Positions 11,254 through 36,884 of a DNA stretch of 40,716 nt are shown here, one piece after another. Numbering within the stretch: position 1 is the first letter of the stretch; each line of letters opens with the position of its first letter. The translations under genes and the position numbers were made by a program. Source of the DNA: a virus (Duplodnaviria > Heunggongvirae > Uroviricota > Caudoviricetes); the IMG/VR virus record IMGVR_UViG_2636415959_000005. One strand, 5' to 3'. The notes beneath the pieces were generated by a model that did no database searches, was not told the DNA's origin, and saw only the letters and a list, made by a program, of their open reading frames with translations.

Positions 11254-11715
11254 TCACGTACTCGGATCATCTTTCTCGATGTAAAACCGATTCCACGTAA
11301 ACGCGCTTTTGTTACCACTACCGCGAGGCATATCATTTCGCCGCTCAAGTGGTGGTATTTTGGTTAAAGCGATACAGATTGTCTGATATGCACTGTCAGC
11401 AGCGGTAAGGAGAGCGTCTGACGGCTGAATGACGTTATCCATGCACACTTGCACAGCGAGTTTCAAAGCGACGCCATCATTTGCCCATGCAGGGATACCT
11501 GAATCATCGTCAGGTAACGGCATGATGCCGTTTTCTGTATCCGCAAACTGATATCCAAGCTCGATACCTTTCGCCTGCCATGCTGCCATCATGTCTTCGA
11601 GGTCATTAATGGCATCTTCAATTGCCTGAGGGTCGGCATCTGTCAACGTGGCATTGGAATACAGCCCGGCTTTTCGTAAAGCCTTAAGAACGAGATCACC
11701 CTTCGTTTTCGCCAT
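11254..11715 (-). CDS. Head-to-tail adaptor (P22 gp4-like)
   Basis: 153-aa ORF in the conserved position after the coat gene. Confidence 0.65.
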   Translation of the reverse strand: MAKTKGDLVLKALRKAGLYSNATLTDADPQAIEDAINDLEDMMAAWQAKGIELGYQFADTENGIMPLPDDDSGIPAWANDGVALKLAVQVCMDNVIQPSDALLTAADSAYQTICIALTKIPPLERRNDMPRGSGNKSAFTWNRFYIEKDDPST

Positions 11716-26794: not shown

Positions 26795-27036
26795 TTTGTG
26801 ATTTCATCAAGCGCATACTTAAAAGCCCTGCTAATCGGACTGATGTCTGATGCCATTCCGAAAGCACACAAGACCGAAGCAATAAACCGCCAGTCCGTTC
26901 TGCTTATCTTCGATTCATGACAGCCAATCATCTTTGCCAGACCGCGCTGGGTAAGCGTTGACAGGTTGATGAGTAAATCAGTTTCAGCGCGATCAATTTC
27001 TCGCTGTGTTGGCTTGCTGTAGCTTGCTTGTGCCAT
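26740..27036 (-). CDS. cII: Transcriptional activator CII
   Basis: 98 aa; C-terminus (…KKKSPAATEDFKQIDMQF) resembles lambda CII (…KKRPAATERSEQIQMEF); sits between cro and O. Confidence 0.75.
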   Translation of the reverse strand: MAQASYSKPTQREIDRAETDLLINLSTLTQRGLAKMIGCHESKISRTDWRFIASVLCAFGMASDISPISRAFKYALDEITKKKSPAATEDFKQIDMQF

Positions 27037-27104
27037 TTGTTAATTTTCCTATATTGATATTGAGTTATAGCGGCACACCCAATGGATTTGCCGCTGATGT
27101 TTGC

Positions 27105-27145
27105 TCACCCGGTTAGAGGTGAAAGGCCATGACTGTTAAAGAGCG
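27105..27145 (-). promoter_or_regulatory. nutR (boxA cgctctttaac plus boxB hairpin with CUAACC loop)
   Basis: Minus strand: boxA at 27145..27133, boxB tcacct-ctaacc-gggtga at 27122..27105, immediately downstream of cro. Confidence 0.6.
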
Positions 27146-27153
27146 GGTACTGC

Positions 27154-27372
27154 TTAGGCGGCTTTGTTACTGGATGGAGGGAAAACATCATCCAAAGAAC
27201 ATTGGCACCCTAACTTCCTGAGGCCTTCTACGATCATTCGGCAATCGTTAAGGCCAGGAGTACGGATATTCAGCTCATAGTTGGCGATGCGGGATTGCCC
27301 CCAACCAATTGCTGAAGCTAGTACAGCTTGCGAAACTCCGATTTTTTTTCGCTGCTGGGCAATTTTGTTCAT
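27154..27372 (-). CDS. cro: Cro-like repressor (XRE-family helix-turn-helix)
   Basis: 72 aa from MNKIAQQRKKIGVSQAVLASAIGWGQSRIANYE…; gggag RBS; divergent from cI; unlike lambda Cro. Confidence 0.8.
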   Translation of the reverse strand: MNKIAQQRKKIGVSQAVLASAIGWGQSRIANYELNIRTPGLNDCRMIVEGLRKLGCQCSLDDVFPPSSNKAA

Positions 27373-27374
27373 TG

Positions 27375-27470
27375 CGGTCTCCCTAGCATTAATCACACAC
27401 CCATTACACACAATTTGTGATTAACAGTCAACCTCAATTCGTGTACAGAGTTCAATCACGTTGCGTGTTA
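27375..27470. promoter_or_regulatory. Right operator/promoter region (OR sites, pR and pRM) between cro and cI
   Basis: Repeated half-sites ttaatcaca / tgtgattaa and caatcacg…cgtgtta in the 108-bp divergent intergenic region. Confidence 0.6.
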
Positions 27471-27480
27471 CATTTAAGGG

Positions 27481-28128
27481 ATGAAAACGATGCATGAAAT
27501 TATCGGGGAAAGGATCAAGTCCCTTAGAGAAGCTAAAGGACTTAGCCAGGCTCAATTGGCCAAGCTTTGCGGCTGGGCTGCGCCTTCACGCCTGGGGAAC
27601 TACGAGTTAGGAACAAGAAAGGTTAGCGCGGATGACGCGCTGGTTCTTGGGGCGGCACTCGGCGTATCTCCGGCAAAAATAATGTTTGGCGAGGATTCAG
27701 ACGCCGTATTTCGCCAATATGAATACCCGTTATTTTCTTCAGTGCAGGCCGGGCCATTTTCGGAGGTGGGAAGCTACACAGCCAGCGATGCAAAGGCATG
27801 GGTCCCAACGACCACAAAAGCCAGCGAAAAAGCTTTCTGGCTTGAGGTGAAGGGGCATTCAATGACGGCGCCTCAGGGGGTTCGTCCAAGTTTTCCGGAA
27901 GGCATGCTGATACTCGTTGATCCGGCTGAGCCGGTAGAGTCTGGGGATTTCTGCGTGGCTTCTGCAAATGGTGATTCAGAGGCAACGTTCAAGAAGTATG
28001 AGAAGGATGCAGGGGTTAGTTACCTGGTACCTTTAAACCCGGCATATAGAACCCTGGATTGCGACCATAGCTGCCGCATCATAGGCAAGGTAGTTAAGGC
28101 GCAGTGGCCTGAAGAGACGTTTGGCTGA
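27481..28128 (+). CDS. cI: CI repressor (novel N-terminal HTH domain, lambda-like S24 C-terminal domain)
   Basis: 215 aa; C-terminal part (…[15 protein letters not shown]…[14 protein letters not shown]…QWPEETFG) resembles lambda CI; N-terminal part does not. Alternative start at 27490. Confidence 0.9.
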
Positions 28129-28240
28129 TCGGCAAGGTGTTCTGGTCGGCGCATAGCTGATAACAATTGAGCAAGAATCTTCATCGAATTAGGGGAATTT
28201 TCACTCCCCTCAGAACATAACATAGTAAATGGATTGAATT

Positions 28241-29080
28241 ATGAAGAATGGTTTTTATGCGACTTACCGCAGCAAAAATAAAGGGAAAGATAAGTGCTCA
28301 ATAAACCTGTCTGTTTTCCTTAATTCTCTGCTGGCTGATAATCATCACCTGCAGGTTGGCTCCAATTATTTGTATATTCATAAAATCGATGGAAAAACTT
28401 TTCTCTTTACCAAAACAAATGACAAGAGTCTGGTTCAGAAGATAAATCGCTCTAAAGCTTCAGTTGAAGATATTAAGAACAGCCTCGCAGATGACGAATC
28501 ATTGGGATTCCCATCTTTTTTGTTTGTTGAAGGCGACACCATTGGTTTTGCCAGAACTGTTTTCGGGCCGACCACATCCGATCTGACAGATTTTTTAATC
28601 GGGAAAGGAATGTCATTAAGCAGTGGAGAGCGCGTTCAGATAGAGCCACTGATGAGGGGAACCACCAAAGACGATGTTATGCATATGCATTTCATCGGCC
28701 GAACAACGGTGAAGGTAGAAGCCAAGCTACCTGTATTTGGCGATATATTAAAGGTCTTAGGGGCAACAGATATTGAAGGGGAGCTTTTTGACTCATTGGA
28801 TATAGTCATTAAGCCAAAATTTAAAAGGGATATAAAAAAGGTTGCCAAGGATATTATTTCTAACCCGTCACCTCAATTTTCAGACATTAGCCTGCGGGCA
28901 AAAGATGAGGCCGGAGATATTTTAACAGAACATTATCTATCAGAAAAAGGCCATCTCTCAGCGCCTCTGAACAAGGTCACCAATGCTGAGATAGCTGAAG
29001 AGATGGCATATTGCTACGCAAGAATGAAAAGTGATATACTGGAATGTTTTAAAAGGCAGGTGGGCAAAGTTAAGGATTAA
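28241..29080 (+). CDS. rexA: RexA (Rex abortive-infection/exclusion system sensor)
   Basis: 279 aa; translation matches lambda RexA as I recall it (MKNGFYATYRSKNKGKDK…QVGKVKD). Confidence 0.9.
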   Translation: MKNGFYATYRSKNKGKDKCSINLSVFLNSLLADNHHLQVGSNYLYIHKIDGKTFLFTKTNDKSLVQKINRSKASVEDIKNSLADDESLGFPSFLFVEGDTIGFARTVFGPTTSDLTDFLIGKGMSLSSGERVQIEPLMRGTTKDDVMHMHFIGRTTVKVEAKLPVFGDILKVLGATDIEGELFDSLDIVIKPKFKRDIKKVAKDIISNPSPQFSDISLRAKDEAGDILTEHYLSEKGHLSAPLNKVTNAEIAEEMAYCYARMKSDILECFKRQVGKVKD

Positions 29081-29095
29081 TTATCAGGAGTAATT

Positions 29096-29530
29096 ATGCG
29101 GAACAGAATCATGCCTGGTGTTTACATAGTAATAATTCCTTACGTTATCGTAAGCATTTGCTATCTCCTTTTCCGCCACTACATTCCTGGTGTTTCTTTT
29201 TCAGCTCATAGAGATGGCCTTGGGGCGACATTGTCATCATATGCAGGAACCATGATTGCAATCCTGATTGCTGCCTTGACGTTTCTAATCGGAAGCAGAA
29301 CGCGCCGACTGGCCAAGATTAGAGAGTATGGGTATATGACATCGGTAGTTATTGTCTATGCCCTTAGTTTTGTTGAGCTTGGAGCTTTGTTTTTCTGCGG
29401 GTTATTGCTTCTTTCCAGCATAAGCGGCTACATGATACCCACTATCGCCATCGGCATTGCCTCTGCATCGTTCATTCATATATGCATCCTTGTTTTCCAA
29501 CTATATAATTTGACCAGAGAACAAGAATAA
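29096..29530 (+). CDS. rexB: RexB (Rex system membrane protein)
   Basis: 144 aa polytopic membrane protein; matches lambda RexB as I recall it. Confidence 0.9.
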   Translation: MRNRIMPGVYIVIIPYVIVSICYLLFRHYIPGVSFSAHRDGLGATLSSYAGTMIAILIAALTFLIGSRTRRLAKIREYGYMTSVVIVYALSFVELGALFFCGLLLLSSISGYMIPTIAIGIASASFIHICILVFQLYNLTREQE

Positions 29531-29557
29531 CCCGGCCACCGAGCCGGGTTTTTTATT
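29531..29557 (+). terminator. Rho-independent terminator after rexB
   Basis: cccggc-caccga-gccggg followed by ttttttatt directly after the rexB stop. Confidence 0.8.
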
Positions 29558-29739
29558 GCCCGCCGATCACTATCAGGACAGCACCTGCCCGCCGGTCCAA
29601 ACTATTGATTAAATTACTATAATTCTTAATACAACTCCCATATCCCGCCATCTCGCCACCACCCCCTTCGCTCGTTTTTCGAACTTTTCAGCACCCATCC
29701 TGCTGTTGCCACCGACTTAAGTAAGCAAAACCATCGCGG

Positions 29740-29830
29740 GTAAAACTATTTACACAAAAAAATCATACACATAACGTGTCACACCTTTATTTTACACATT
29801 TTGTGATTGACCATTAAATCACAATATGTG
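29740..29830 (+). promoter_or_regulatory. Left operator/promoter region (OL sites, pL)
   Basis: Repeats of operator-like half-sites (ttacacattttgtgatt, aaatcacaatatgtgact) upstream of N, resembling those in the cro–cI region. Confidence 0.5.
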
Positions 29831-29883
29831 ACTATCATTTCCATCAGCAGGACGCTGAGACGCCACAAGGAACAGATTGGCAG

Positions 29884-29923
29884 GCTCTTTAACATCGACG
29901 AACTCTCAACCTAACCGTTGAGA
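29884..29923 (+). promoter_or_regulatory. nutL (boxA gctctttaaca plus phage-21-type boxB tctcaac-CUAACC-gttgaga)
   Basis: 7-bp stem with hexaloop CUAACC at 29904..29923, preceded by boxA; matches my recollection of phage 21 boxB. Confidence 0.65.
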
Positions 29924-30033
29924 CCAGAACTTGAGTGGTTTTGGGGATGGCGCGAATTGCAGCTGCAAGACAGCGATCGAGAAGATAAGCACCTCGACGC
30001 GTCATGCGCCAAAGCCGCTTAAAGGAGACCATC

Positions 30034-30339
30034 ATGGTAACCATTGTCTGGAAAGAATCCAAAGGTACGGCAAAAAGCCGCTACAAAGCTCGCAGAGCAG
30101 AACTTATTGCCGAGCGACGCAGTAATGAAGCACTGGCGCGAAAAATTGCGCTAAAGCTCTCTGGTTGCGTCAGAGCAGATAAAGCAGCATCACTCGGAAG
30201 CCTTCGCTGCAAGAAGGCAGAAGAAGTCGAGCGTAAACAGAACCGTATTTACTACCGCAAGCCACGCAGTGAAATGGGTGTGACTTGTGTTGGTCGCCAG
30301 AAAATGAAATTAGGCAGTAAGCTACTGTATGAGGGGTGA
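30034..30339 (+). CDS. N: Antiterminator N (phage-21-type arginine-rich motif)
   Basis: 101 aa from MVTIVWKESKGTAKSRYKARRAELIAERR…; aaaggag RBS; C-terminus (…YYRKPRSEMGVTCVGRQKMKLGSK…) resembles lambda N. Confidence 0.85.
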   Translation: MVTIVWKESKGTAKSRYKARRAELIAERRSNEALARKIALKLSGCVRADKAASLGSLRCKKAEEVERKQNRIYYRKPRSEMGVTCVGRQKMKLGSKLLYEG

Positions 30340-30342
30340 GAT

Positions 30343-30531
30343 ATGCATAAATGTCAGTTCTGTGGATACATGTTTGAATCAAATGAAATGCAACGTATTT
30401 CGTTAAACCTTATCGGTAGGCCATACAACATTTGCCTAGGATGTAGCGAGAAATACAAAAACAAAGACATGTGGGACGACAATAAAAACGATATCGACTG
30501 GAAATCACTTCCATGCGTCGATGAGACATAA
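30343..30531 (+). CDS. Hypothetical Cys-rich (CxxC…CxxC) small protein
   Basis: 62 aa; CQFCGYMF…CLGCSEKY suggests a zinc ribbon; first gene after N. Confidence 0.5.
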   Translation: MHKCQFCGYMFESNEMQRISLNLIGRPYNICLGCSEKYKNKDMWDDNKNDIDWKSLPCVDET

Positions 30532-30564
30532 CCGCATCAGCGGGTAACGACAGAGGGTAAGGGG

Positions 30565-30861
30565 ATGATCGACGACATCAAGCGCATCGACTCAATGATA
30601 AATGCGCTTCGCAATATGAAACAGGACATCAAGCGTCAGCAGAAACTAAGTGAAATAAACAGTTTAGACCTGTCGCCGAAGCAAGCTCAAAAGCGCAATG
30701 CCGATGCTGACTGGATTGCGATGGAACAGATTAAGCGTCGGCATGAGCTGCACGCTCTGTCTGTTGAGCTTGGGTTCGCTGAGCGCCGGGAAAGTTATGC
30801 TCCATTTGAATTAACTGACGGGTGGCACCGATTCGACCACAAGCCGCGCGAACCTCAATAG
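30565..30861 (+). CDS. Hypothetical protein (98 aa)
   Basis: ORF in the pL operon, followed directly by a terminator. Confidence 0.5.
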   Translation: MIDDIKRIDSMINALRNMKQDIKRQQKLSEINSLDLSPKQAQKRNADADWIAMEQIKRRHELHALSVELGFAERRESYAPFELTDGWHRFDHKPREPQ

Positions 30862-30882
30862 CCGCCTAACCAGCGGCTTTTT
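30861..30882 (+). terminator. tL1-like rho-independent terminator
   Basis: gccgc-ctaacca-gcggc followed by tttttcat. Confidence 0.7.
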
Positions 30883-31016
30883 CATACCTGGAGTCATTTA
30901 CGAGTGGCTCAAGTTATGACAACCGGCGGCCATCCACCGCCCATTGAAACACTGAATAAATGCGTTGAAGTCTTGTATTAACCGTTCCGTTCGCCGCGAT
31001 AAGGCCAAGAGGATTT

Positions 31017-31226
31017 ATGAGTGATTTGGAGTTGGGCTTAAAGATATACGCATTATGGTTTGTCGGGACGTTTCTGCTCGGCATAGCAATCAACTCGCTG
31101 ACGAAAAAAGAACATCGCCAGCCACTTTCAAAACTAGCCATTGACCATGTACGCATGTCTTCCGCAATAACCATTGTGGGCCTGATTGTGTGCGGTATGG
31201 GCTGGTTCTTATTCAAGGTGGTGTGA
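31017..31226 (+). CDS. Hypothetical small membrane protein (two predicted transmembrane helices)
   Basis: 69 aa with two hydrophobic stretches; preferred over the antisense ORF 30914..31216. Confidence 0.45.
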   Translation: MSDLELGLKIYALWFVGTFLLGIAINSLTKKEHRQPLSKLAIDHVRMSSAITIVGLIVCGMGWFLFKVV

Positions 31227-31227
31227 G

Positions 31228-31386
31228 ATGACAGTCACCCACAACGGCAAGCAGTACACCGCCAAAAAGCTCAACGATAACGAGTGGCAGCTGACGTCGG
31301 TATCTAACCCGCGTGAAAAGCTGACGATGAACCGCTGGCATATGAAGCTGGCTGGCCTCCTGGAACAGGTTGAGGTGAAGGCATGA
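31228..31386 (+). CDS. Hypothetical small protein (52 aa)
   Basis: MTVTHNGKQYTAKKLNDNEWQL…; ATG 2 nt after the upstream stop. Confidence 0.45.
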   Translation: MTVTHNGKQYTAKKLNDNEWQLTSVSNPREKLTMNRWHMKLAGLLEQVEVKA

Positions 31387-31592
31387 TCAACCACTACGGC
31401 ACCACCCCGCTCATTCGCCAGTGCGTCACGCCCGGCATGATGGCATTGCATGAAGGCCGCACATATCGCGTCTCAGCAGTCATTCAGGAGCGCAAATGGG
31501 TATACCTGCACACTGACGCAGAAATAATCCGACTCAGTGACTGCGTGATTGACGTCCTTCTTGACGGTCACGGCAACCCTATCCAGCACTAA
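31383..31592 (+). CDS. Hypothetical small protein (69 aa)
   Basis: ATGA overlap with the upstream ORF; no homolog recognised. Confidence 0.45.
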   Translation: MINHYGTTPLIRQCVTPGMMALHEGRTYRVSAVIQERKWVYLHTDAEIIRLSDCVIDVLLDGHGNPIQH

Positions 31593-31662
31593 CCACCCTA
31601 TTCAACCGTTCGGCCTGGCATTACGCGGGCGGGATCTGCACATCCAAATTTCAGGAGAAACC

Positions 31663-32664
31663 ATGAGCGAAGTAACGGACTTAACTGTCATCGAAATCAA
31701 GCCGGAACAGGCCCCAGTGCTTTACGTAGCGGGCGGCCTTGACGCGTACCTTGAGCAAATCCGCCAGGCTGTAAACGAAGTGCCGGACCTGTCCACGAAG
31801 AAAGGCCGTGATCGTGTTGCCTCTCTGGCAGCGCAGGTGTCCCGCAGCAAGACGGCAATCGAAAAGCCGGGCCGTGAGTACCTGAAGCGCCTGAAAGAGG
31901 CTGTGCGTCCGGCTGAGGCCGAAATTAAGCGATTCGTTGATGCCTGCGACGAGCTGCGCGATGCGACCCGCCGCCCACTCACCGAATGGGAAGCCGAGCA
32001 GGAACGCATTAAGGCTGAAGAAGCCATGAACGCGATGCACGCCGAAGCGCTGGAGATGAACATCAGGTTCGATCAGGAGCTGGCTGCCAAGTTCGAAGCG
32101 GACCACGAAATGGCTCTACTGATGAACAAGGATTTTGACCGTGACCGCGAAGAGCAGCGCCGTCTGGCGGAACAGGCTCAGCGTGAACGTGATGATCGGC
32201 TGAAACAGGAAGCGGCAGAACAAGCCCGCCGCGATGCCGAAGCAAAGGCAAAAGCCGAAATTGAAGCAGCAGCAAGGCGAGAAGCAGAAGCTAAGGCCGC
32301 AGCGGAACGTGCAGAGCGTGAACGCATTGAAGCCGAGCAACGAGCACAGCGCGAAGCAAAAGAGGCAGCAGAACGAGCTGAAAGAGAAAAGCAGGCGGCA
32401 ATTGAAGCAGAACGCCGAAAAGCACAGGAGGAGGCTGAACGAATCCGGCGCGAGGCTGAAGCAAAAGAGCAAGCCAGAATAGCAGAAGAAAAAAGAATCA
32501 AGGAAGAAGAAGAGTGTAGAGCAAAGGATAAAGCTCACCGGAAAGAAGTAAATAACAAAATACTTGCTGACCTTATCAAGGTTGGCGCATCAGAAGATGT
32601 TGCTAAAAATATCATAACAGCCATCGTAAAAGGCGAAGTATTCGCAACAAAAATAACCTACTAA
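31663..32664 (+). CDS. Hypothetical protein with long charged low-complexity (Ala/Glu/Lys/Arg-rich) coiled-coil region
   Basis: 333 aa from MSEVTDLTVIEIK…; aggag RBS; residues about 160–290 are repeats of the type EAKAKAEIEAAARREAEAKAAAERAE. Confidence 0.7.
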   Translation: MSEVTDLTVIEIKPEQAPVLYVAGGLDAYLEQIRQAVNEVPDLSTKKGRDRVASLAAQVSRSKTAIEKPGREYLKRLKEAVRPAEAEIKRFVDACDELRDATRRPLTEWEAEQERIKAEEAMNAMHAEALEMNIRFDQELAAKFEADHEMALLMNKDFDRDREEQRRLAEQAQRERDDRLKQEAAEQARRDAEAKAKAEIEAAARREAEAKAAAERAERERIEAEQRAQREAKEAAERAEREKQAAIEAERRKAQEEAERIRREAEAKEQARIAEEKRIKEEEECRAKDKAHRKEVNNKILADLIKVGASEDVAKNIITAIVKGEVFATKITY

Positions 32665-32688
32665 TAAAACCAACATAAGGAACCACCC

Positions 32689-32835
32689 ATGATTTACGCA
32701 ATCGCGGGAGGCGCTCGCATGGGTGCCTTCCAATTAAATGAATCTTTACTTGAACGAATCACCCGTAAATTACGTGACGGATGGAAACGACTCATCGACG
32801 TACTTAATCAGCCAGGAGTTCCAAAAAATGGATAA
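32689..32835 (+). CDS. cIII: CIII (FtsH protease inhibitor)
   Basis: 48 aa (MIYAIAGGARMGAFQLNESLLERITRKLRDGWKRLIDVLNQPGVPKNG) containing the conserved core I recall from lambda CIII; below the ORF-track cutoff. Confidence 0.8.
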   Translation: MIYAIAGGARMGAFQLNESLLERITRKLRDGWKRLIDVLNQPGVPKNG

Positions 32836-32941
32836 AACACTTATGGCTATTCAGACTAAATTCACTATCGCCACTTTTATTGGCGATGAAAAGATGTTTC
32901 GTGAGGCCGTCGAAGCCTACAGAAAATGGAGGTCTAAATGA
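32828..32941 (+). CDS. kil: Kil-like host cell-division inhibitor
   Basis: 37 aa (MDKTLMAIQTKFTIATFIGDEKMFREAVEAYRKWRSK) in the lambda kil position; aggag RBS; resembles lambda Kil as I recall it. Confidence 0.6.
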   Translation: MDKTLMAIQTKFTIATFIGDEKMFREAVEAYRKWRSK

Positions 32942-33126
32942 TTCCGGTAGAGCTGGCGAAAACTCCAGAGTTAAGTCGATTAAAAAGAGAATATCACATT
33001 GCTGAGGCTCGTTACTGGCGTAAAGCGGGAGATAAATCAAAGAAACAACTTTGTTTATGGCAAGCACAAAGAGAGCGCATGAATGAGCGCGAATTTCTTT
33101 CCTCCCCATCCGAATTACCATTCTGA
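32938..33126 (+). CDS. Hypothetical protein (62 aa) in the position lambda gam occupies
   Basis: Unrelated to lambda Gam as I recall it; ATGA overlap with the upstream gene. Confidence 0.45.
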   Translation: MIPVELAKTPELSRLKREYHIAEARYWRKAGDKSKKQLCLWQAQRERMNEREFLSSPSELPF

Positions 33127-33134
33127 GGTGAATT

Positions 33135-33842
33135 ATGGATTTGAATAAATTCGATGAGCCATTCAGCCCTGAAGATATCGAATGGCGAATACAGCAAAGC
33201 GGTAAAACACGCGATGGAAAGGTGTGGGCTATGGTGCTGGCTTATGTCACGAACAGGGCAATCATGAAACGCCTGGACGATGTTTGCGGCAAAGCAGGAT
33301 GGCGCAATGAATACCGCGATATTCCCAACAACGGCGGCGTTGAATGCGGCATATCAATAAAGATTGATTCCGAATGGGTAACCAAATGGGATGCTGCTGA
33401 AAACACGCAGGTAGAAGCCGTCAAAGGTGGTCGTTCCGGTGCAATGAAGCGCGCTGCCGTTCAGTGGGGAATCGGTCGGTATCTGTATAACCTTGAGGAA
33501 GGTTTCGCACAAACATCTATCGATAAAAAGCAGGGGTGGCACAGGGCAAAACTGAAGGATGGAACAGGATTTTACTGGCTCCCTCCATCGCTTCCGGGAT
33601 GGGCAATCCCAGCATCAGATAACAAACCATCACCAGAAAATACCAACCAGAAATCTCCATCGGTTGACTGCGAACAAATCCTGAAAGACTTCAGCGATTA
33701 TGCGTCAACAGAAACTGACAAGAAAAAACTCATCGAGCGTTATCAGCGTGACTGGCAATTAATGGCTGGCAACGAGGAGGCGCAGGCTAAATGCGTTCAG
33801 GTAATGAACATCAGAGTTAACGAACTAAAACAGGCGGCATAA
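33135..33842 (+). CDS. Single-strand annealing protein, Rad52/Sak-like (functional analogue of lambda Bet)
   Basis: 235 aa; motif …GGRSGAMKRAAVQWGIGRYLYNL… typical of phage Rad52-family annealing proteins; gaggtg RBS. Confidence 0.65.
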   Translation: MDLNKFDEPFSPEDIEWRIQQSGKTRDGKVWAMVLAYVTNRAIMKRLDDVCGKAGWRNEYRDIPNNGGVECGISIKIDSEWVTKWDAAENTQVEAVKGGRSGAMKRAAVQWGIGRYLYNLEEGFAQTSIDKKQGWHRAKLKDGTGFYWLPPSLPGWAIPASDNKPSPENTNQKSPSVDCEQILKDFSDYASTETDKKKLIERYQRDWQLMAGNEEAQAKCVQVMNIRVNELKQAA

Positions 33843-34310
33843 ATGTATCACTTGGACGGAATTATTAAAAGATTCGAGTCCAGCTACAAAGTTAATGAAA
33901 CAACAGGTTGCTGGGAGTCTACCTATTCAAAAAACAAAGGAGGATACACAAAATTTGTAGCCTTTGGCGTAACAATGCTTTCTCATCGTGTTGCTTTTGA
34001 GCTTTATCACTCCCCCATTCCATCTGGGAAGATGGTTTGCCACAAATGCGATAACCCATGCTGCGTTAATCCTGAACATCTCTTTTTAGGTAGCGCGCAA
34101 GAAAACATGGACGACAAGATAGCAAAAGGAAGGCATCGTGGAGCCAAGAAAGGTCATGCTCATCATGGTGCAAAATTAACAGAGTGGCAGGTTATAGAAA
34201 TTAGGAAAAGACTCTCTGAAAAAGAGAGTCAGTACAAGATAGCAAAAGACATGGGTGTATCTCAATCAATTATAAGCAACATAAAAACTGGCAAGAGGTG
34301 GAGCAAATGA
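33843..34310 (+). CDS. HNH endonuclease with C-terminal DNA-binding region
   Basis: 155 aa; HNH signature [44 protein letters not shown]; overlapping start and stop with neighbours. Confidence 0.85.
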
Positions 34311-34813
34311 GTTCTCGCGGGATAAATAAGGTGATTATCCTTGGTCGGGTAGGACAAGACCCGGAAGTTCGATACTCACCATCAGGAACAGCGTTCGCTA
34401 ACCTGACAATAGCCACGTCAGAACAATGGCGAGATAAAAATACTGGCGAGCAAAAGGAATTGACTGAATGGCATCGTGTTGCTGTATCCGGGAAACTGGC
34501 TGAGGTCGTGGGGCAGTATGTGAAAAAAGGTGATCAGATTTATTTCGAGGGAATGCTGAGAACCAGAAAGTGGAAAGACCAGTCAGGGCAAGACCGTTAC
34601 ACAACCGAGGTTCATGTCGGAATTAATGGCGTGATGCAAATGCTTGGCGGCATTGGCGACAGCAAACAACAAGCAGCCAGCAGGCAATCACAGAAGCCAC
34701 AGCAGCAATCATCACCAGCACAACACAACGAACCTCCGATGGATTTTGACGACAATATACCCTTTGCACCAGTAACTCTCCCCTTCCCTCGTCACGCTAT
34801 TCACGCAATTTAA
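34307..34813 (+). CDS. ssb: Single-stranded DNA-binding protein (SSB) with C-terminal extension
   Basis: [23 protein letters not shown]…TEWHRV…[17 protein letters not shown] parallels E. coli SSB; acidic tip [11 protein letters not shown] is followed by 15 more residues. Confidence 0.9.
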
Positions 34814-34826
34814 TCAGGAGAAAATC

Positions 34827-35123
34827 ATGCCAGCGCCTCTGTATGGTGCGGATGACCCGCGCCGCTGTTCCGGCAATTCCGTATCGGAGGTGCTGGAAAG
34901 TATCAAGAATAATCTCGGCGCGTTTCTTGCTCTGCCACCAGAAACAAAAGCAGAACGGAAGTACCGACGCGATATACAACTCGCAGAAAAACAGGAAAAA
35001 GACCGAATAAACGAAACATCAATCCGACCATTCCGCAAAGCCACATATACCCACTTCCCTGAATATATCGACCCGCGCCTGCGTAATTACCGCTCACGCT
35101 ATGGCGCTATCAGTAATGACTGA
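34827..35123 (+). CDS. Hypothetical protein (98 aa)
   Basis: ORF in the same operon with an RBS; no homolog recognised. Confidence 0.45.
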
Positions 35124-35133
35124 GGAATTTACC

Positions 35134-35298
35134 ATGAGAGGACTTGCATACAATCCCGGCATTCTTCCGGCAGAAATGATTATTCGACAACGCGTAAAGC
35201 CAATGCCATCGAGAGAGGAATTGCTTAAGAGAAATTCTTTTCCATCAGTGAATCAAAACAAGTATCTGAATGCGATGTTGCGGAGTGGGAAGAAATGA
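35134..35298 (+). CDS. Hypothetical small protein (54 aa)
   Basis: gagga RBS upstream of MRGLAYNPG…; the track ORF from 35101 probably starts too early. Confidence 0.4.
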
Positions 35299-35945
35299 AA
35301 CAAATGACACTAATTGAGATGGATGGATTTCTGAAAGGTAAATGCATCCCACGAGATTTAAAGGTTAACGAAACAAACGCTGAATATCTGGTGCGTAAAT
35401 TTGCTGAGATTGAATCAAAACTGGAAACGGCGTTGCGGGAGTGTCGTTCTGCTGGAATAACGATTGATAACCTTGAGGCCAAGTGCGCAGCGCTGGCTGC
35501 TGATAACAAGAAAGCAATGGAGGCAATGAGGCAGGCAGATGCAGCTGTTAAGTTGGCACACGAGAAGTTTTCGGCGCTGGCGGCGGAGAATGCGATGTTG
35601 AAGCAACGGACACAGCAACTTATCGACATCATTAGTAATACTGACAATGACTACTGCATGTGTGGTTCTGCTATGAAAGACCACGTGCACAGCGGATGTG
35701 GTTATCCTACTGGCATGTTCGATTATTACTACAACCAGTGGCTGGAGTCAGATAACAAAACCCCAGCCACCGACGATTTCCTGGCTGAAGTGCGGGCTAA
35801 GGCGTTTAATGACCTTTGCGCGGTGTTCGTTAAGGACGCGACGGTTATCGGGCTGGACGATGGCGACATCGTTACGGTGAAAGAAGCGACGGACGCCCTG
35901 TTGCATTGTGCGGAACAGCTTCGCAAAGGAGGTGAGCAAAAATGA
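35295..35945 (+). CDS. Ea22-like protein
   Basis: 216 aa with central coiled coil and Cys/His-rich C-terminal part; position between the recombination genes and xis as for lambda ea22. Confidence 0.5.
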
Positions 35946-36259
35946 CAATCACAAAACAACGTGTAGAAGAAATCATATCCCGTATTGAAATGTATGGGCA
36001 TGGTGCTGGGTATACAGCCGAAGAGGTTTATGACCTTGCTGTGCTGGCGCTGAATTTATCAAATATCGCAAACCTGAAGCGATACGAGCTTGATATGGGT
36101 GGTTGTGACTCGTTCGGTCAGGATTGTGGTGCTGACATGAGTGAAGATTCTGATGGCGATTATGTCCTGTTTGATGACGTGGTTAAGTTGTTTGAGTTTG
36201 ATACAACCACTCAGAAGTTAGAAGGCCCAGCAAAGGAGACAACCAGTGAGCGAAATTGA
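35942..36259 (+). CDS. Hypothetical acidic protein (105 aa)
   Basis: ATGA-coupled ORF; acidic C-terminal region. Confidence 0.45.
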   Translation: MTITKQRVEEIISRIEMYGHGAGYTAEEVYDLAVLALNLSNIANLKRYELDMGGCDSFGQDCGADMSEDSDGDYVLFDDVVKLFEFDTTTQKLEGPAKETTSERN

Positions 36260-36884
36260 CTATCAGGCACTGCGTGAGGCGGCAGAGAAAGCAACGTGGG
36301 GAGACTGGGACTCATATAAACCACACCGTGGCGCACGTGGTTATGAGGTCCGACTAAGTAGTCAGGCCATTGCGCAACACGTTCTGAAAAACAACGCTGA
36401 ATTTATTGCTGCCTTTAATCCAAAGGTTGCTTTGGCACTACTGGATGAACGGGAAAGGAACCAGCAATACATCAAATCCCGCGACCAGGAGAACGAGGAA
36501 ATTGCGCTAACGGTAGGGAAGCTGAGAGTTGAGCGTGAGAAAGCAAAATCAAAACTCAACGAGCAGCGTGAGTATTACGAAGGTGTTATCTCGGATGGAA
36601 GTAAGCGCATAGCAGAACTGGAAGCGCGGGAAATAAAACCAGCCAAAGGTGAAGTTCTGGTCGTTGTATCTGGTTTTACTGGTTGCGGAAAAAGCGCCAT
36701 TGCCGGGGAAATAGAAATCGCGATGAAGGCTATTGGTGTACCGGTTAAGTGGACTAATGGCGATGCAGAAAAGCGCATGACTGGCGCTGACTGGCTGACA
36801 GCAATTGAGATGTACAAACCAACTGTGCGCATCGTGGAAGTTAATGTGCCACGTGCCGCAGGCATTCGCATCAAAGGAGAGTGA
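36246..36884 (+). CDS. Ead/Ea22-like protein
   Basis: 212 aa; N-terminus MSEIDYQALREAAEKATWGDW… is the kind of conserved N-terminal module I associate with Ead/Ea22-like proteins. Confidence 0.55.
   Translation: MSEIDYQALREAAEKATWGDWDSYKPHRGARGYEVRLSSQAIAQHVLKNNAEFIAAFNPKVALALLDERERNQQYIKSRDQENEEIALTVGKLRVEREKAKSKLNEQREYYEGVISDGSKRIAELEAREIKPAKGEVLVVVSGFTGCGKSAIAGEIEIAMKAIGVPVKWTNGDAEKRMTGADWLTAIEMYKPTVRIVEVNVPRAAGIRIKGE

What the first reader, a model, noticed from the sequence alone, without database searches (positions are those of the whole stretch)
30343..33126. Early-left operon carries nine or so small proteins, only cIII and kil recognisable; no gam
Downstream of N there is a Cys-rich 62-aa protein, a 98-aa protein, a two-helix membrane protein, two short proteins, a 333-aa charged coiled-coil protein, then cIII, kil and a 62-aa protein where lambda has gam. 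In lambda this operon encodes host-takeover and anti-defence functions (Ral, Gam, Kil, CIII). The unrecognised genes here are the most plausible place for new anti-restriction, anti-RecBCD or superinfection-exclusion activities.
Basis: partly seen in the sequence, partly recalled or inferred. Interest (0 to 1): 0.55.

Follow-up and report, generated by a model that had tools for sequence, protein, structure and literature searches.

The report
Mosaic early-left operon of a prophage
This is the ordinary early "host-takeover" operon of a P22-like lambdoid prophage, stitched together from three phage lineages; most of its "unknown" genes already have database identities, RecBCD is handled by Abc2 instead of Gam, and four small orphan genes remain untested.

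Summary
All nine ORFs exist as described and there is no gam. "Only cIII and kil recognisable" does not hold.

- The 98-aa protein is 100% identical to the phage phi80 protein deposited as N.
- One "short protein" is a KilR-family division inhibitor, so the operon has a second, unrelated kil.
- The 333-aa coiled-coil protein is 79% identical to phi80 Agt, annotated as the antidote of the GamL nuclease inhibitor.
- The 62-aa ORF in lambda's gam position belongs to the HK620 hkaM family and is not P22 Arf.
- Anti-RecBCD function lies just outside the finding, as Abc2 (34827-35123) in an Erf-HNH-SSB-Abc2 module.

The region is a three-way mosaic. A crossover within 17 identical bases in the 3' end of the zinc-ribbon gene joined a phage-21-type pL-nutL-N block to a phi80-type block. 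This placed two unrelated N-type genes in tandem.

Still of unknown function: the zinc-ribbon protein, a two-helix membrane protein, a 52-aa protein and the hkaM-like protein. None matches a known defence model. Agt belongs to a very large, unnamed family that sits at the head of phage recombination modules with or without GamL.

Verdict: a new member of a known kind, of modest interest.

The parts
29885..29923 (+). nutL: boxA GCTCTTTAA and a phage-21-type boxB hairpin TCTCAACCTAACCGTTGAGA
   Evidence: Read from the sequence. It is the only match to the boxB pattern in the window. The matching nutR (boxA CGCTCTTTAA, boxB CACCTCTAACCGGGTG) lies on the minus strand at about 27146-27100.
30034..30339 (+). 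N antiterminator, phage-21/HK620 type, with an arginine-rich motif (GTAKSRYKARRAELIAERR)
   Evidence: phrog_271 at E 2.4e-37. Pfam N_peptide 23.7 bits, below its cut-off. The longest ORF starts at 30004; the ATG at 30034 is the likely start. That this start matches the phage-21 N sequence is my own recollection.
30343..30531 (+). Zn62: orphan 62-aa zinc-ribbon protein, function unknown; a chimeric gene
30487..30503 (.). Crossover point (AACGATATCGACTGGAA) joining the phage-21-type block to the phi80-type block
   Evidence: The window is identical to L008 (N21 context) from 30300 to 30503. From about 30487 to 30570 it matches L031 with one mismatch and L023 with three (phi80-type context). Protein residues 1-52 match one group and the last 9 residues match the other.
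30565..30861 (+). N80: protein identical to the one deposited as N of phage phi80; no arginine-rich motif, unrelated to lambda/21/P22 N
   Evidence: 100% amino-acid identity to M11919.1, X13065.1 and JX871397 'N'. phrog_25091. No Pfam N_peptide hit. 30532-31583 is 99.2% identical in DNA to phi80.
30860..30886 (+). Intrinsic terminator (AGCCGCCTAACCAGCGGCT followed by a T-run), equivalent to phi80 tL1A
   Evidence: Found by the terminator scan. It corresponds to the feature annotated tL1A directly after N in JX871397.
31017..31226 (+). mem69: 69-aa protein with two transmembrane helices, function unknown
   Evidence: phrog_25975. 47 clusters, most of them exactly 69 aa long, at 78-99% identity in Escherichia, Enterobacter, Salmonella, Citrobacter and Leclercia, with a conserved loop KKEHRQxLSKLAIDH. 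It is a precise gene-sized indel relative to L023. It is not annotated in JX871397, where it overlaps the feature 'tL1B rho-dependent terminator'.
31228..31386 (+). p44: 52-aa protein, homologue of PHI80_44, function unknown
   Evidence: phrog_6396 at E 5.9e-36. The ORF is intact in 47 of 47 distinct variants; the N-terminal half is conserved and the C-terminal half variable. The selection signal is weak.
31383..31592 (+). KilR-family division inhibitor (the phi80 'kil'); a second kil, unrelated to lambda Kil
   Evidence: NCBIfam NF008465 'FtsZ inhibitor protein', 116.6 bits against a cut-off of 92. phrog_294. Annotated kil in JX871397. Strong purifying selection, for example 23 synonymous to 4 non-synonymous changes.
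31663..32664 (+). Agt-family protein: helical N-domain (about 120 aa), a long charged single helix, and a small C-terminal domain
   Evidence: 79% identical to phi80 Agt 'anti-toxin for Gam / Mog'. phrog_1376 at 3e-110. The AlphaFold2 model is all-helical with pLDDT 84.9. The N-domain family has 5,498 clusters at 50% identity; ten diverse members scanned had no significant Pfam family.
32689..32835 (+). cIII (inhibitor of the FtsH protease)
   Evidence: PF02061, 85.9 bits. 77% identical to P22 C3.
32828..32941 (+). lambda-type Kil (FtsZ/ZipA-dependent division inhibitor); an alternative upstream start is at 32738
   Evidence: PF06301, 74.6 bits, covering residues 32-62 of the 67-aa ORF. phrog_2461 and phrog_3924.
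32938..33126 (+). hkaM-like 62-aa protein, function unknown; sits in the slot between kil and the annealing-protein gene
   Evidence: phrog_1723. 98% identical to HK620 hkaM. No similarity to P22 Arf. Lambda-type kil is upstream in 80 of 80 loci; downstream is Sak4-like in 65 and Erf in 15.
33135..33842 (+). Erf-type single-strand annealing protein (outside the finding)
   Evidence: phrog_1097 at 1e-129.
33843..34310 (+). HNH endonuclease, inserted between erf and ssb (outside the finding)
   Evidence: phrog_59, phrog_1872 and phrog_6254. Phages Huey, mEp235 and N7 go from erf to ssb with 13 nt where the window has 477 nt.
34298..34813 (+). Single-strand DNA-binding protein (outside the finding)
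   Evidence: phrog_44 at 7e-66.
34827..35123 (+). Abc2 anti-RecBCD protein: the functional counterpart of the missing gam (outside the finding)
   Evidence: phrog_656 at 1.9e-48 over its full length. 69% identical to P22 Abc2.

Best explanation
The region is the promoter-proximal half of the pL (early-left) operon of a P22-like lambdoid prophage.

How it works:
- On derepression, transcription starts at pL.
- The phage-21-type N protein loads at its cognate nutL. This lets RNA polymerase read through the intrinsic terminator at 30860-30886 and on into the recombination module (inferred from lambdoid biology).

How it was built (shown). It is a three-way mosaic:
1. A phage-21/HK620-type block: pL, nutL, N and the 5' part of Zn62.
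2. A phi80-type block: the Zn62 tail, phi80 'N', terminator tL1A, mem69, p44, KilR and the 5' part of agt, with PHI80_41 absent.
3. A Huey/HK620/Sf6-type block: the 3' part of agt, cIII, kil, hkaM, erf and onward to abc2.

Blocks 1 and 2 were joined by homologous recombination within 17 identical bases inside the 3' end of Zn62. This carried in a phi80-type N without the motif that the phi80 record marks as its putative nutL.

What the products do (inferred by family membership):
- CIII protects CII from FtsH.
- KilR and lambda Kil are two unrelated division inhibitors.
- Agt is the family whose phi80 member is annotated as neutralising GamL toxicity. Here it has no GamL.
- RecBCD is dealt with the P22 way, by Abc2 in an Erf-SSB-Abc2 module. 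That is why there is no gam.

Zn62, mem69, p44 and the hkaM-like protein are real, conserved, narrowly distributed genes of unknown function.
For: Operon and antitermination system:
- pL, nutL and the N21-type N.
- nutR is of the same type.
- RexA, RexB and cI lie upstream.
- The virion genes are P22-like (Kapi1, Sf101, CUS-3).

Mosaic structure:
- 30532-31583 is 99.2% identical to phi80.
- 31597-32354 is 88% identical to phi80 agt.
- 32167-33845 is 98% identical to phage Huey.
- The crossover is mapped to 30487-30503.
- Zn62 occurs in two contexts, either after an N21-like N or between the phi80-type nutL and N80.

Gene identities.

No gam, but Abc2 is present.

The orphans are real genes:
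- Zn62.
- mem69.
- p44.
- hkaM-like.

Background from papers:
- Four non-homologous anti-RecBCD types (Gam, GamL, Abc2, MuGam) occur in lambdoid phages (PMC12315714, read).
- The titles and abstracts of PMC3961180 and PMC12482147, listed, describe lambda Kil and Rac KilR as division inhibitors.
Against: - No transcription data. That all the ORFs are co-transcribed and that N21 suppresses the phi80-type terminator is inferred.
- mem69 overlaps what the phi80 record calls a rho-dependent terminator.
- p44 shows no clear excess of synonymous change: 169 synonymous to 329 non-synonymous codon changes, and the antisense frame looks similar.
- The functions of KilR, Kil, CIII and Agt rest on family membership only.
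- The experimental basis of the phi80 'agt' and 'N' annotations could not be read. The Rotman et al. 2012 paper is not held.
Confidence: 0.85

Rival explanations
1. One reading: one or more of the unidentified ORFs (Zn62, mem69, p44, hkaM-like, perhaps Agt) encode new anti-restriction, anti-nuclease or superinfection-exclusion activities.
For: - They sit where lambda and P22 carry ral, sieB, gene 17 and abc.
- They behave as exchangeable cassettes with joints at gene boundaries.
- The families are narrow: Zn62 has 10 clusters and mem69 has 47.
- The Agt family is tied by annotation to a RecBCD/SbcCD inhibitor.
- Agt always heads the recombination module.
- A two-helix membrane protein is a typical form for an exclusion protein (inference).
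Against: - No PADLOC match.
- No tblastn hit to P22 Ral, SieB, gp17 or Abc1 in the window.
- None is among the roughly 200 accessory genes screened by Silas et al..
- The structure searches gave only generic folds.
- There is no positive evidence of any kind.
Confidence: 0.3
2. The phi80 'N' family protein (N80) is not this prophage's antiterminator, and may not be an N-type antiterminator in general. It would be a separate conserved early protein that usually lies just after a classical N gene. In the window it would be either a functional accessory protein or a recently acquired passenger.
For: - In at least 7 sequence-diverged viral contigs, a phrog_271 arginine-rich N gene lies 20-1000 nt upstream of the N80 homologue. 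One of these is Erwinia phage 59, where the N80 homologue is annotated N.
- Another contig has a Nun-like gene there.
- N80 has no arginine-rich N-terminus and no Pfam N_peptide match.
- The motif annotated as the phi80 nutL core (CACGTAAACGTG) is absent from the window.
- Both nut sites of the window are phage-21 type.
Against: - In phi80-immunity phages N80 is the first gene after pL, and no classical N is present.
- Three independent phi80 records call it N. The 1985 record probably rests on functional assays, which I could not read.
- The window copy is 100% identical to phi80 N, so it could simply be a very recent hitch-hiker with no role here.
Confidence: 0.4
3. Agt is not specifically a GamL antidote. 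It would be a general component or modulator of phage recombination modules, or an antidote to another toxic neighbour such as KilR.
For: - Among 80 loci with near-identical N-domains, about 55 have GamL next and about 20 have Erf-SSB with no GamL.
- Diverged members precede DUF3799 exonuclease plus RecT, ERF plus YqaJ, or Arf plus ERF, with no GamL homologue.
- KilR is the upstream neighbour in most loci.
- The family is far larger than expected for a dedicated GamL partner: 5,498 clusters at 50% identity.
Against: - The only functional annotation is the phi80 one.
- Conserved position in a mosaic operon can reflect shared ancestry rather than function.
- The fold is uninformative.
Confidence: 0.45
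4. Some of the small ORFs (mem69, p44) are not genes but chance ORFs within a transcribed leader or terminator region.
For: - mem69 is unannotated in JX871397 and overlaps its 'tL1B' terminator feature.
- p44 has an antisense ORF that is intact in 45 of 47 variants.
- p44 shows no excess of synonymous change.
Against: - mem69 keeps a length of exactly 69 aa in most of its 47 clusters, across five genera (plus one 434-bp contig labelled Staphylococcus), with a conserved loop and two conserved hydrophobic helices.
- mem69 is gained and lost as an exact gene-sized unit.
- p44 is intact in 47 of 47 variants, with an invariant N-terminal half.
- The antisense ORFs have no PHROG family.
Confidence: 0.12

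Closest known systems
Early-left operon of phage phi80 (JX871397: N, tL1A/B, PHI80_44, kil, PHI80_41, agt, gamL, rec, exo)
   Same: Window 30532-31583 is 99.2% identical in DNA. It carries the same N (100% amino-acid identity), the same terminator, PHI80_44 and the KilR-type kil. The Agt homologue is 79% identical.
   Different: The window lacks the phi80 pL, operators and nutL, and also PHI80_41, gamL, recT and exo. Its promoter, nut sites and first N are phage-21 type. Agt is followed by cIII-kil-hkaM-erf instead of gamL.
Early-left operons of HK620, Sf6, Huey and P22 (Lederbergvirus)
   Same: The order N ... cIII - kil - small ORF - annealing protein - SSB - Abc2 is the same. There is no gam and Abc2 is the RecBCD modulator. 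32167-33845 is 98% identical to Huey, which also has an Agt homologue just before kil.
   Different: P22 has ral, sieB/esc, gene 17, Arf and Abc1, none of which is present here. HK620 has hkaQ/hkaP and a Sak4-like annealing protein. None of them has Zn62, a phi80-type N, mem69, p44 or KilR.
Lambda pL operon (N, ral, sieB, ea10, cIII, kil, gam, bet, exo)
   Same: The logic is the same: N-dependent read-through from pL, cIII and kil adjacent, and a recombination module downstream.
   Different: There is no Gam, Bet or Exo, and no tblastn hit to P22 Ral or SieB. The N specificity differs. A second (KilR-type) division inhibitor and an Agt-family gene are present.
P22 Arf (accessory recombination function, PF17585 / phrog_2445)
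   Same: The 62-aa ORF at 32938-33126 occupies the same slot, between kil and the annealing-protein gene.
   Different: There is no detectable sequence similarity and the PHROG family differs. The ORF travels with lambda-type kil and is found in front of both Sak4-like and Erf genes.

Membership tests
Lambda CIII (PF02061) | Match to the family profile above the curated cut-off | tested here: met
   85.9 bits against a cut-off of 25.7, residues 2-45. 77% identical to P22 C3.
Lambda Kil (PF06301) | Match to the family profile above the curated cut-off | tested here: met
   74.6 bits against a cut-off of 27.6.
Lambda Kil (PF06301) | ZipA-dependent block of FtsZ assembly (PMC3961180) | not testable with these tools
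   Needs expression and microscopy.
KilR / phi80 Kil (NCBIfam NF008465) | Match above the curated cut-off over the full length | tested here: met
   116.6 bits against a cut-off of 92, residues 1-69 of 69. phrog_294 at 6.5e-30. A Klebsiella homologue in the same gene order carries PF27398 KilR.
phi80 N family (phrog_25091) | Sequence identity to the protein deposited as phi80 N | tested here: met
   100% over 98 aa to M11919.1, X13065.1 and JX871397.
phi80 N family (phrog_25091) | Cognate phi80-type nut site upstream (annotated 'putative' nutL core CACGTAAACGTG) | tested here: not met
   The only match in the window has one mismatch and lies at 11294, inside the virion genes. The window's own nut sites are phage-21 type.
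Lambda/21/P22 N family (PF25694, phrog_271), tested on the 98-aa ORF | N-terminal arginine-rich RNA-binding motif and a profile match | tested here: not met
   No PF25694 or phrog_271 hit for 30565-30861. The sequence shows no Arg-rich N-terminus. The upstream gene 30034-30339 does meet it (phrog_271 at 2.4e-37).
phi80 Agt / Mog (phrog_1376) | Full-length homology to phi80 Agt | tested here: met
   79% identity over 333 aa, E 1e-156. phrog_1376 at 3.2e-110.
phi80 Agt / Mog (phrog_1376) | Partner gene gamL immediately downstream (the toxin it is annotated to neutralise) | tested here: not met
   No GamL homologue anywhere in the window. cIII follows agt.
P22 Arf (phrog_2445 / PF17585) | Sequence homology to Arf | tested here: not met
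   BLASTP found no alignment with E up to 100. The PHROG families differ.
Gam / GamL RecBCD inhibitors | A homologue encoded in the operon | tested here: not met
No PHROG gam family among the ORFs scanned.
Abc2 anti-RecBCD (phrog_656) | Full-length profile match and homology to P22 Abc2 | tested here: met
   1.9e-48 over residues 1-98 of 98. 69% identical to P22 Abc2.
   No hits at E up to 0.01. RexA and RexB upstream serve as positive controls.

The most novel reading that the evidence does not exclude
Two readings are not excluded.

1. The Agt family is a general, Gam-independent modulator of host nucleases (RecBCD/SbcCD) or of phage recombination. It has about 5,500 clusters at 50% identity, no Pfam family was found in the members scanned, and it always sits at the head of phage recombination modules.
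2. At least one of the four narrowly distributed orphans (Zn62, mem69, p44, hkaM-like) is a new host-takeover, anti-defence or exclusion factor.

A linked possibility: the 'phi80 N' family is not an N-type antiterminator, but a distinct early protein that normally follows a classical N.
Probability: 0.3. Interest if true: 0.6.

Novelty: new member of a known kind. Interest (0 to 1): 0.33.

Why it matters
The main result is a correction. This is a normal lambdoid early-left operon whose "missing gam" is explained by a P22-type Abc2 module. Half of its "unknown" genes already have names.

Three leads are worth keeping:
1. The crossover is mapped to 17 identical bases inside a small accessory gene. 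It is a clean example of how lambdoid mosaics arise, and it put two unrelated N-type genes in tandem.
2. The same "classical N followed by phi80-type N" order recurs in at least seven diverged phages. This questions the long-standing label of the phi80 N family.
3. Agt belongs to a very large family for which no Pfam family was found in the members scanned. It consistently heads phage recombination modules with or without GamL. Its one functional annotation links it to a RecBCD/SbcCD inhibitor, so it is a concrete candidate for experiments.

Tried and rejected
- **P22 Arf.** I expected the 62-aa ORF in the 'gam slot' to be Arf. Rejected: no similarity, and a different PHROG family. The PHROG label 'recombinase' for phrog_1723 has no visible basis.
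- **'ECs_2282 family putative zinc-binding protein'.** I took this PGAP name for Zn62. The annotated region shows it belongs to an unrelated 150-aa minus-strand gene.
- **Rfam.** An E-value scan of 27000-36500 found no known RNA family.
- **Papers.** Rotman et al. 2012 (phi80 genome, agt/gamL) is not held. What I say about it rests on the GenBank annotation and my memory of the abstract. One search was wasted on 'gamL', which matched the statistics term GAMLSS. The supplements of Silas et al. 2025 contain none of the window's peptides.
- **afdb50 fold library.** Not available.
- **Codon-change counts for p44 against its antisense ORF.** They do not discriminate, because both frames share the same wobble position.

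Full report
**What the window is.** The 40.7-kb window holds a complete P22-like lambdoid prophage.
- Its virion genes resemble phages Kapi1, vB_EcoP-720R6, Sf101 and CUS-3.
- The immunity region has cI (27481-28128), then RexA and RexB (28241-29530; phrog_12654 and phrog_14878, PADLOC RexA and RexB), then a bidirectional terminator at 29529-29550.
- Downstream lie a pL-like promoter with operators, and a nutL with boxA GCTCTTTAA and the hairpin TCTCAACCTAACCGTTGAGA.
- A nutR with the same CUAACC-loop type of boxB follows cro on the other strand.
- The first pL gene is an arginine-rich N of the phage-21/HK620 type (phrog_271 at 2.4e-37).

**Check of the observation.** All nine ORFs exist at the stated coordinates.
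- Each matches a PHROG family over its full length, with E from 6e-30 to 3e-110.
- None of five overlapping minus-strand ORFs tested has a PHROG match.
- cIII and kil pass Pfam's curated cut-offs.
- No Gam or GamL homologue is present anywhere in the window.

**What the 'unrecognised' ORFs are.**

*The 98-aa ORF (30565-30861).* It is 100% identical to the protein deposited as N of phage phi80 in three records, including M11919.1 of 1985. The stretch 30532-31583 is 99.2% identical in DNA to phi80. It includes the intrinsic terminator directly after the gene, which phi80 annotates as tL1A.

*The 69-aa ORF (31383-31592).* It is the phi80 'kil'. It is a member of the Rac KilR family, scoring 116.6 bits against NCBIfam NF008465's cut-off of 92, and it is under strong purifying selection. 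Together with the lambda-type Kil at 32828-32941, the operon encodes two unrelated division inhibitors. The titles and abstracts of PMC12482147 and PMC3961180, listed, describe KilR and lambda Kil in this role.

*The 333-aa charged protein (31663-32664).* It is 79% identical to phi80 Agt. The phi80 record describes Agt as 'anti-toxin for Gam; Mog (modifier of Gam)'. It describes the next gene, gamL, as a RecBCD/SbcCD inhibitor that is 'toxic without Mog'. As I recall the abstract of Rotman et al. 2012, agt was called gamL's 'own antidote'; I could not read the paper.

*The 62-aa ORF at lambda's gam position (32938-33126).* It is 98% identical to HK620 hkaM. It is not related to P22 Arf. In 80 of 80 viral contigs it follows lambda-type kil. 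It precedes a Sak4-like gene in 65 of them and Erf in 15. It therefore belongs to the cIII-kil block rather than to a particular recombinase.

**Why there is no gam.** The genes that follow are Erf (33135-33842), an inserted HNH endonuclease, SSB, and Abc2 at 34827-35123.
- Abc2 matches phrog_656 at 1.9e-48 and is 69% identical to P22 Abc2.
- Lambdoid phages use four non-homologous anti-RecBCD proteins: Gam, GamL, Abc2 and MuGam. P22 Abc2 binds RecC (PMC12315714).
- This prophage uses the P22 solution. The absent gam does not point to a missing or novel RecBCD inhibitor within the finding's coordinates.

**The mosaic and the tandem N genes.** Zn62 (30343-30531) occurs in 26 viral contigs in two contexts:
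- directly after an N21-like N, at 90% amino-acid identity to the window copy;
- between a phi80-type pL/nutL leader and the phi80-type N, at 74-81% identity.

The window copy is a chimera.
- Its DNA is identical to the first group up to 30503.
- From about 30487 to 30570 it matches the second group with one to three mismatches.
- The crossover therefore lies in the shared 17 bases AACGATATCGACTGGAA.

This event placed a phi80-type N, without the motif annotated as its putative nutL, behind a phage-21-type N.

The joint is rare. No phage record and none of 5,426 complete E. coli genomes covers it at 80% or more.

The general order 'classical N, then phi80-type N' is not rare.
- In at least seven diverged contigs a phrog_271 N lies 20-1000 nt upstream of the phi80-type N homologue. 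One of these is Erwinia phage 59.
- One further contig has a Nun-like gene there.
- In phi80-immunity phages no classical N is present, and the phi80-type N is the first pL gene.

So either this family is a second kind of antiterminator that often coexists with N, or it has another role. The data here cannot decide.

A second joint lies inside agt, where phi80-like sequence gives way to Huey-like sequence around 32167-32354.

**The remaining orphans.**

*Zn62.*
- It is a real gene: the five Cys are invariant, and synonymous changes outnumber non-synonymous ones in seven of eight comparisons.
- The family is tiny, with 10 clusters among 5.8 billion proteins.
- The model is a zinc ribbon plus one helix with pLDDT 83.6. 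It resembles only generic zinc fingers.

*mem69 (31017-31226).*
- Most of its 47 clusters are exactly 69 aa long, in five enterobacterial genera (plus one 434-bp contig labelled Staphylococcus), with two hydrophobic helices and a conserved charged loop.
- It is gained or lost as an exact gene-sized cassette.
- The phi80 record places a rho-dependent terminator inside it.

*p44 (31228-31386).*
- It is intact in 47 of 47 variants, with an invariant N-terminal half.
- It shows no clear purifying signal.

None of these ORFs, nor Agt, KilR or hkaM, matches PADLOC. tblastn with P22 Ral, SieB, gp17 and Abc1 found nothing in the window, and none of the window's ORFs is among the accessory genes screened by Silas et al..

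**Agt in more depth.**
- A profile of its N-domain finds 5,498 clusters at 50% identity with E up to 1e-3, and 4,566 with E up to 1e-10.
- Ten diverse members had no significant Pfam family (one unrelated hit below its cut-off), and all fell in phrog_1376, 'unknown function'.
- The model is all-helical: a helical N-domain, one helix of about 140 residues rich in E, R, K and A, and a small C-terminal domain. The length of the charged helix varies between homologues.
- Structure searches were uninformative.

Its genomic position is consistent. It heads the recombination module whatever that module's type:
- GamL-RecT-Exo in about 55 of 80 close loci, and Erf-SSB in about 20;
- Arf-ERF in a Klebsiella prophage;
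- DUF3799 exonuclease plus RecT in Yersinia and Citrobacter;
- ERF plus YqaJ in a metagenome contig.

The last three groups have no GamL homologue. KilR is often the upstream neighbour. Agt's role is therefore probably wider than neutralising GamL, but what it does remains inference.

**Verdict.**
- The region is a known kind of operon in a new mosaic combination. No evidence was found for a new class of function.
- Four small orphan genes and Agt remain legitimate, cheap experimental targets.
- The recurrent 'N then phi80-type N' arrangement deserves a proper census.

Noticed in passing
window 33843-34310: A free-standing HNH endonuclease gene with a C-terminal helix-turn-helix sits between erf and ssb. 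Phages Huey, mEp235 and N7 have 13 nt at this point where the window has 477 nt. It looks like a homing-endonuclease insertion.
   Followed up: partly
window 28241-29530: RexA and RexB exclusion genes follow cI and end at a bidirectional terminator (29529-29550). So a lambda-type Rex abortive-infection system is combined with phage-21-type N and nut sites in a P22-like virion.
   Followed up: partly
L031 3960-4215 (IMGVR_UViG_2636415959_000003); phi80 L001 3001-3033: In phi80-type phages that carry Zn62, the gene is flanked by a 17-bp direct repeat CCGCATCAGCGGGTAAC, which contains a small hairpin. phi80 itself has one copy and no Zn62. This suggests Zn62 entered or left as a cassette by recombination at this repeat. 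The window keeps only the downstream copy (30532-30548).
   Followed up: partly
L001 2840-2930 (phi80 N leader); also L224 1273-1452 and L227 1213-1401: A conserved stretch of leader DNA, read as '...GCGEGFMDGNMSHVKRRG...' in one frame, recurs upstream of N-type genes in phi80-like phages. It also recurs in contigs whose first gene is a classical arginine-rich N. It could be a conserved RNA element of the N leader. It is not present in the window.
   Followed up: no
L220, L224, L227, L228, L229, L231, L232 (about 1400-2500 of each locus): A classical phrog_271 N gene lies directly upstream of a phi80-'N'-family gene in at least seven diverged viral contigs. L232 corresponds to Erwinia phage vB_EhrS_59, where the second gene is the one annotated as N.
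   Followed up: partly
window 31209-31451 (minus strand): An 80-aa antisense ORF, the homologue of PHI80_43, overlaps p44. It shares p44's wobble positions and is intact in 45 of 47 variants. It has no PHROG family, so it is probably not a gene, but this is not excluded.
   Followed up: partly
window 35101-36259: Downstream of abc2 there are more conserved ORFs of unknown function: phrog_1117; a 216-aa protein matching phrog_614, phrog_368 and phrog_492; and phrog_3126. They resemble the ea-type genes of P22 and HK620.
   Followed up: no
L196 3715-5676 (Klebsiella prophage, GCA_900774095.1): The gene order KilR - Agt homologue - 65-aa ORF - Arf (PF17585) - ERF shows that the KilR-Agt pair is conserved outside Escherichia and is next to a true Arf. 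Upstream of it is a BstA_C-domain defence gene.
   Followed up: no
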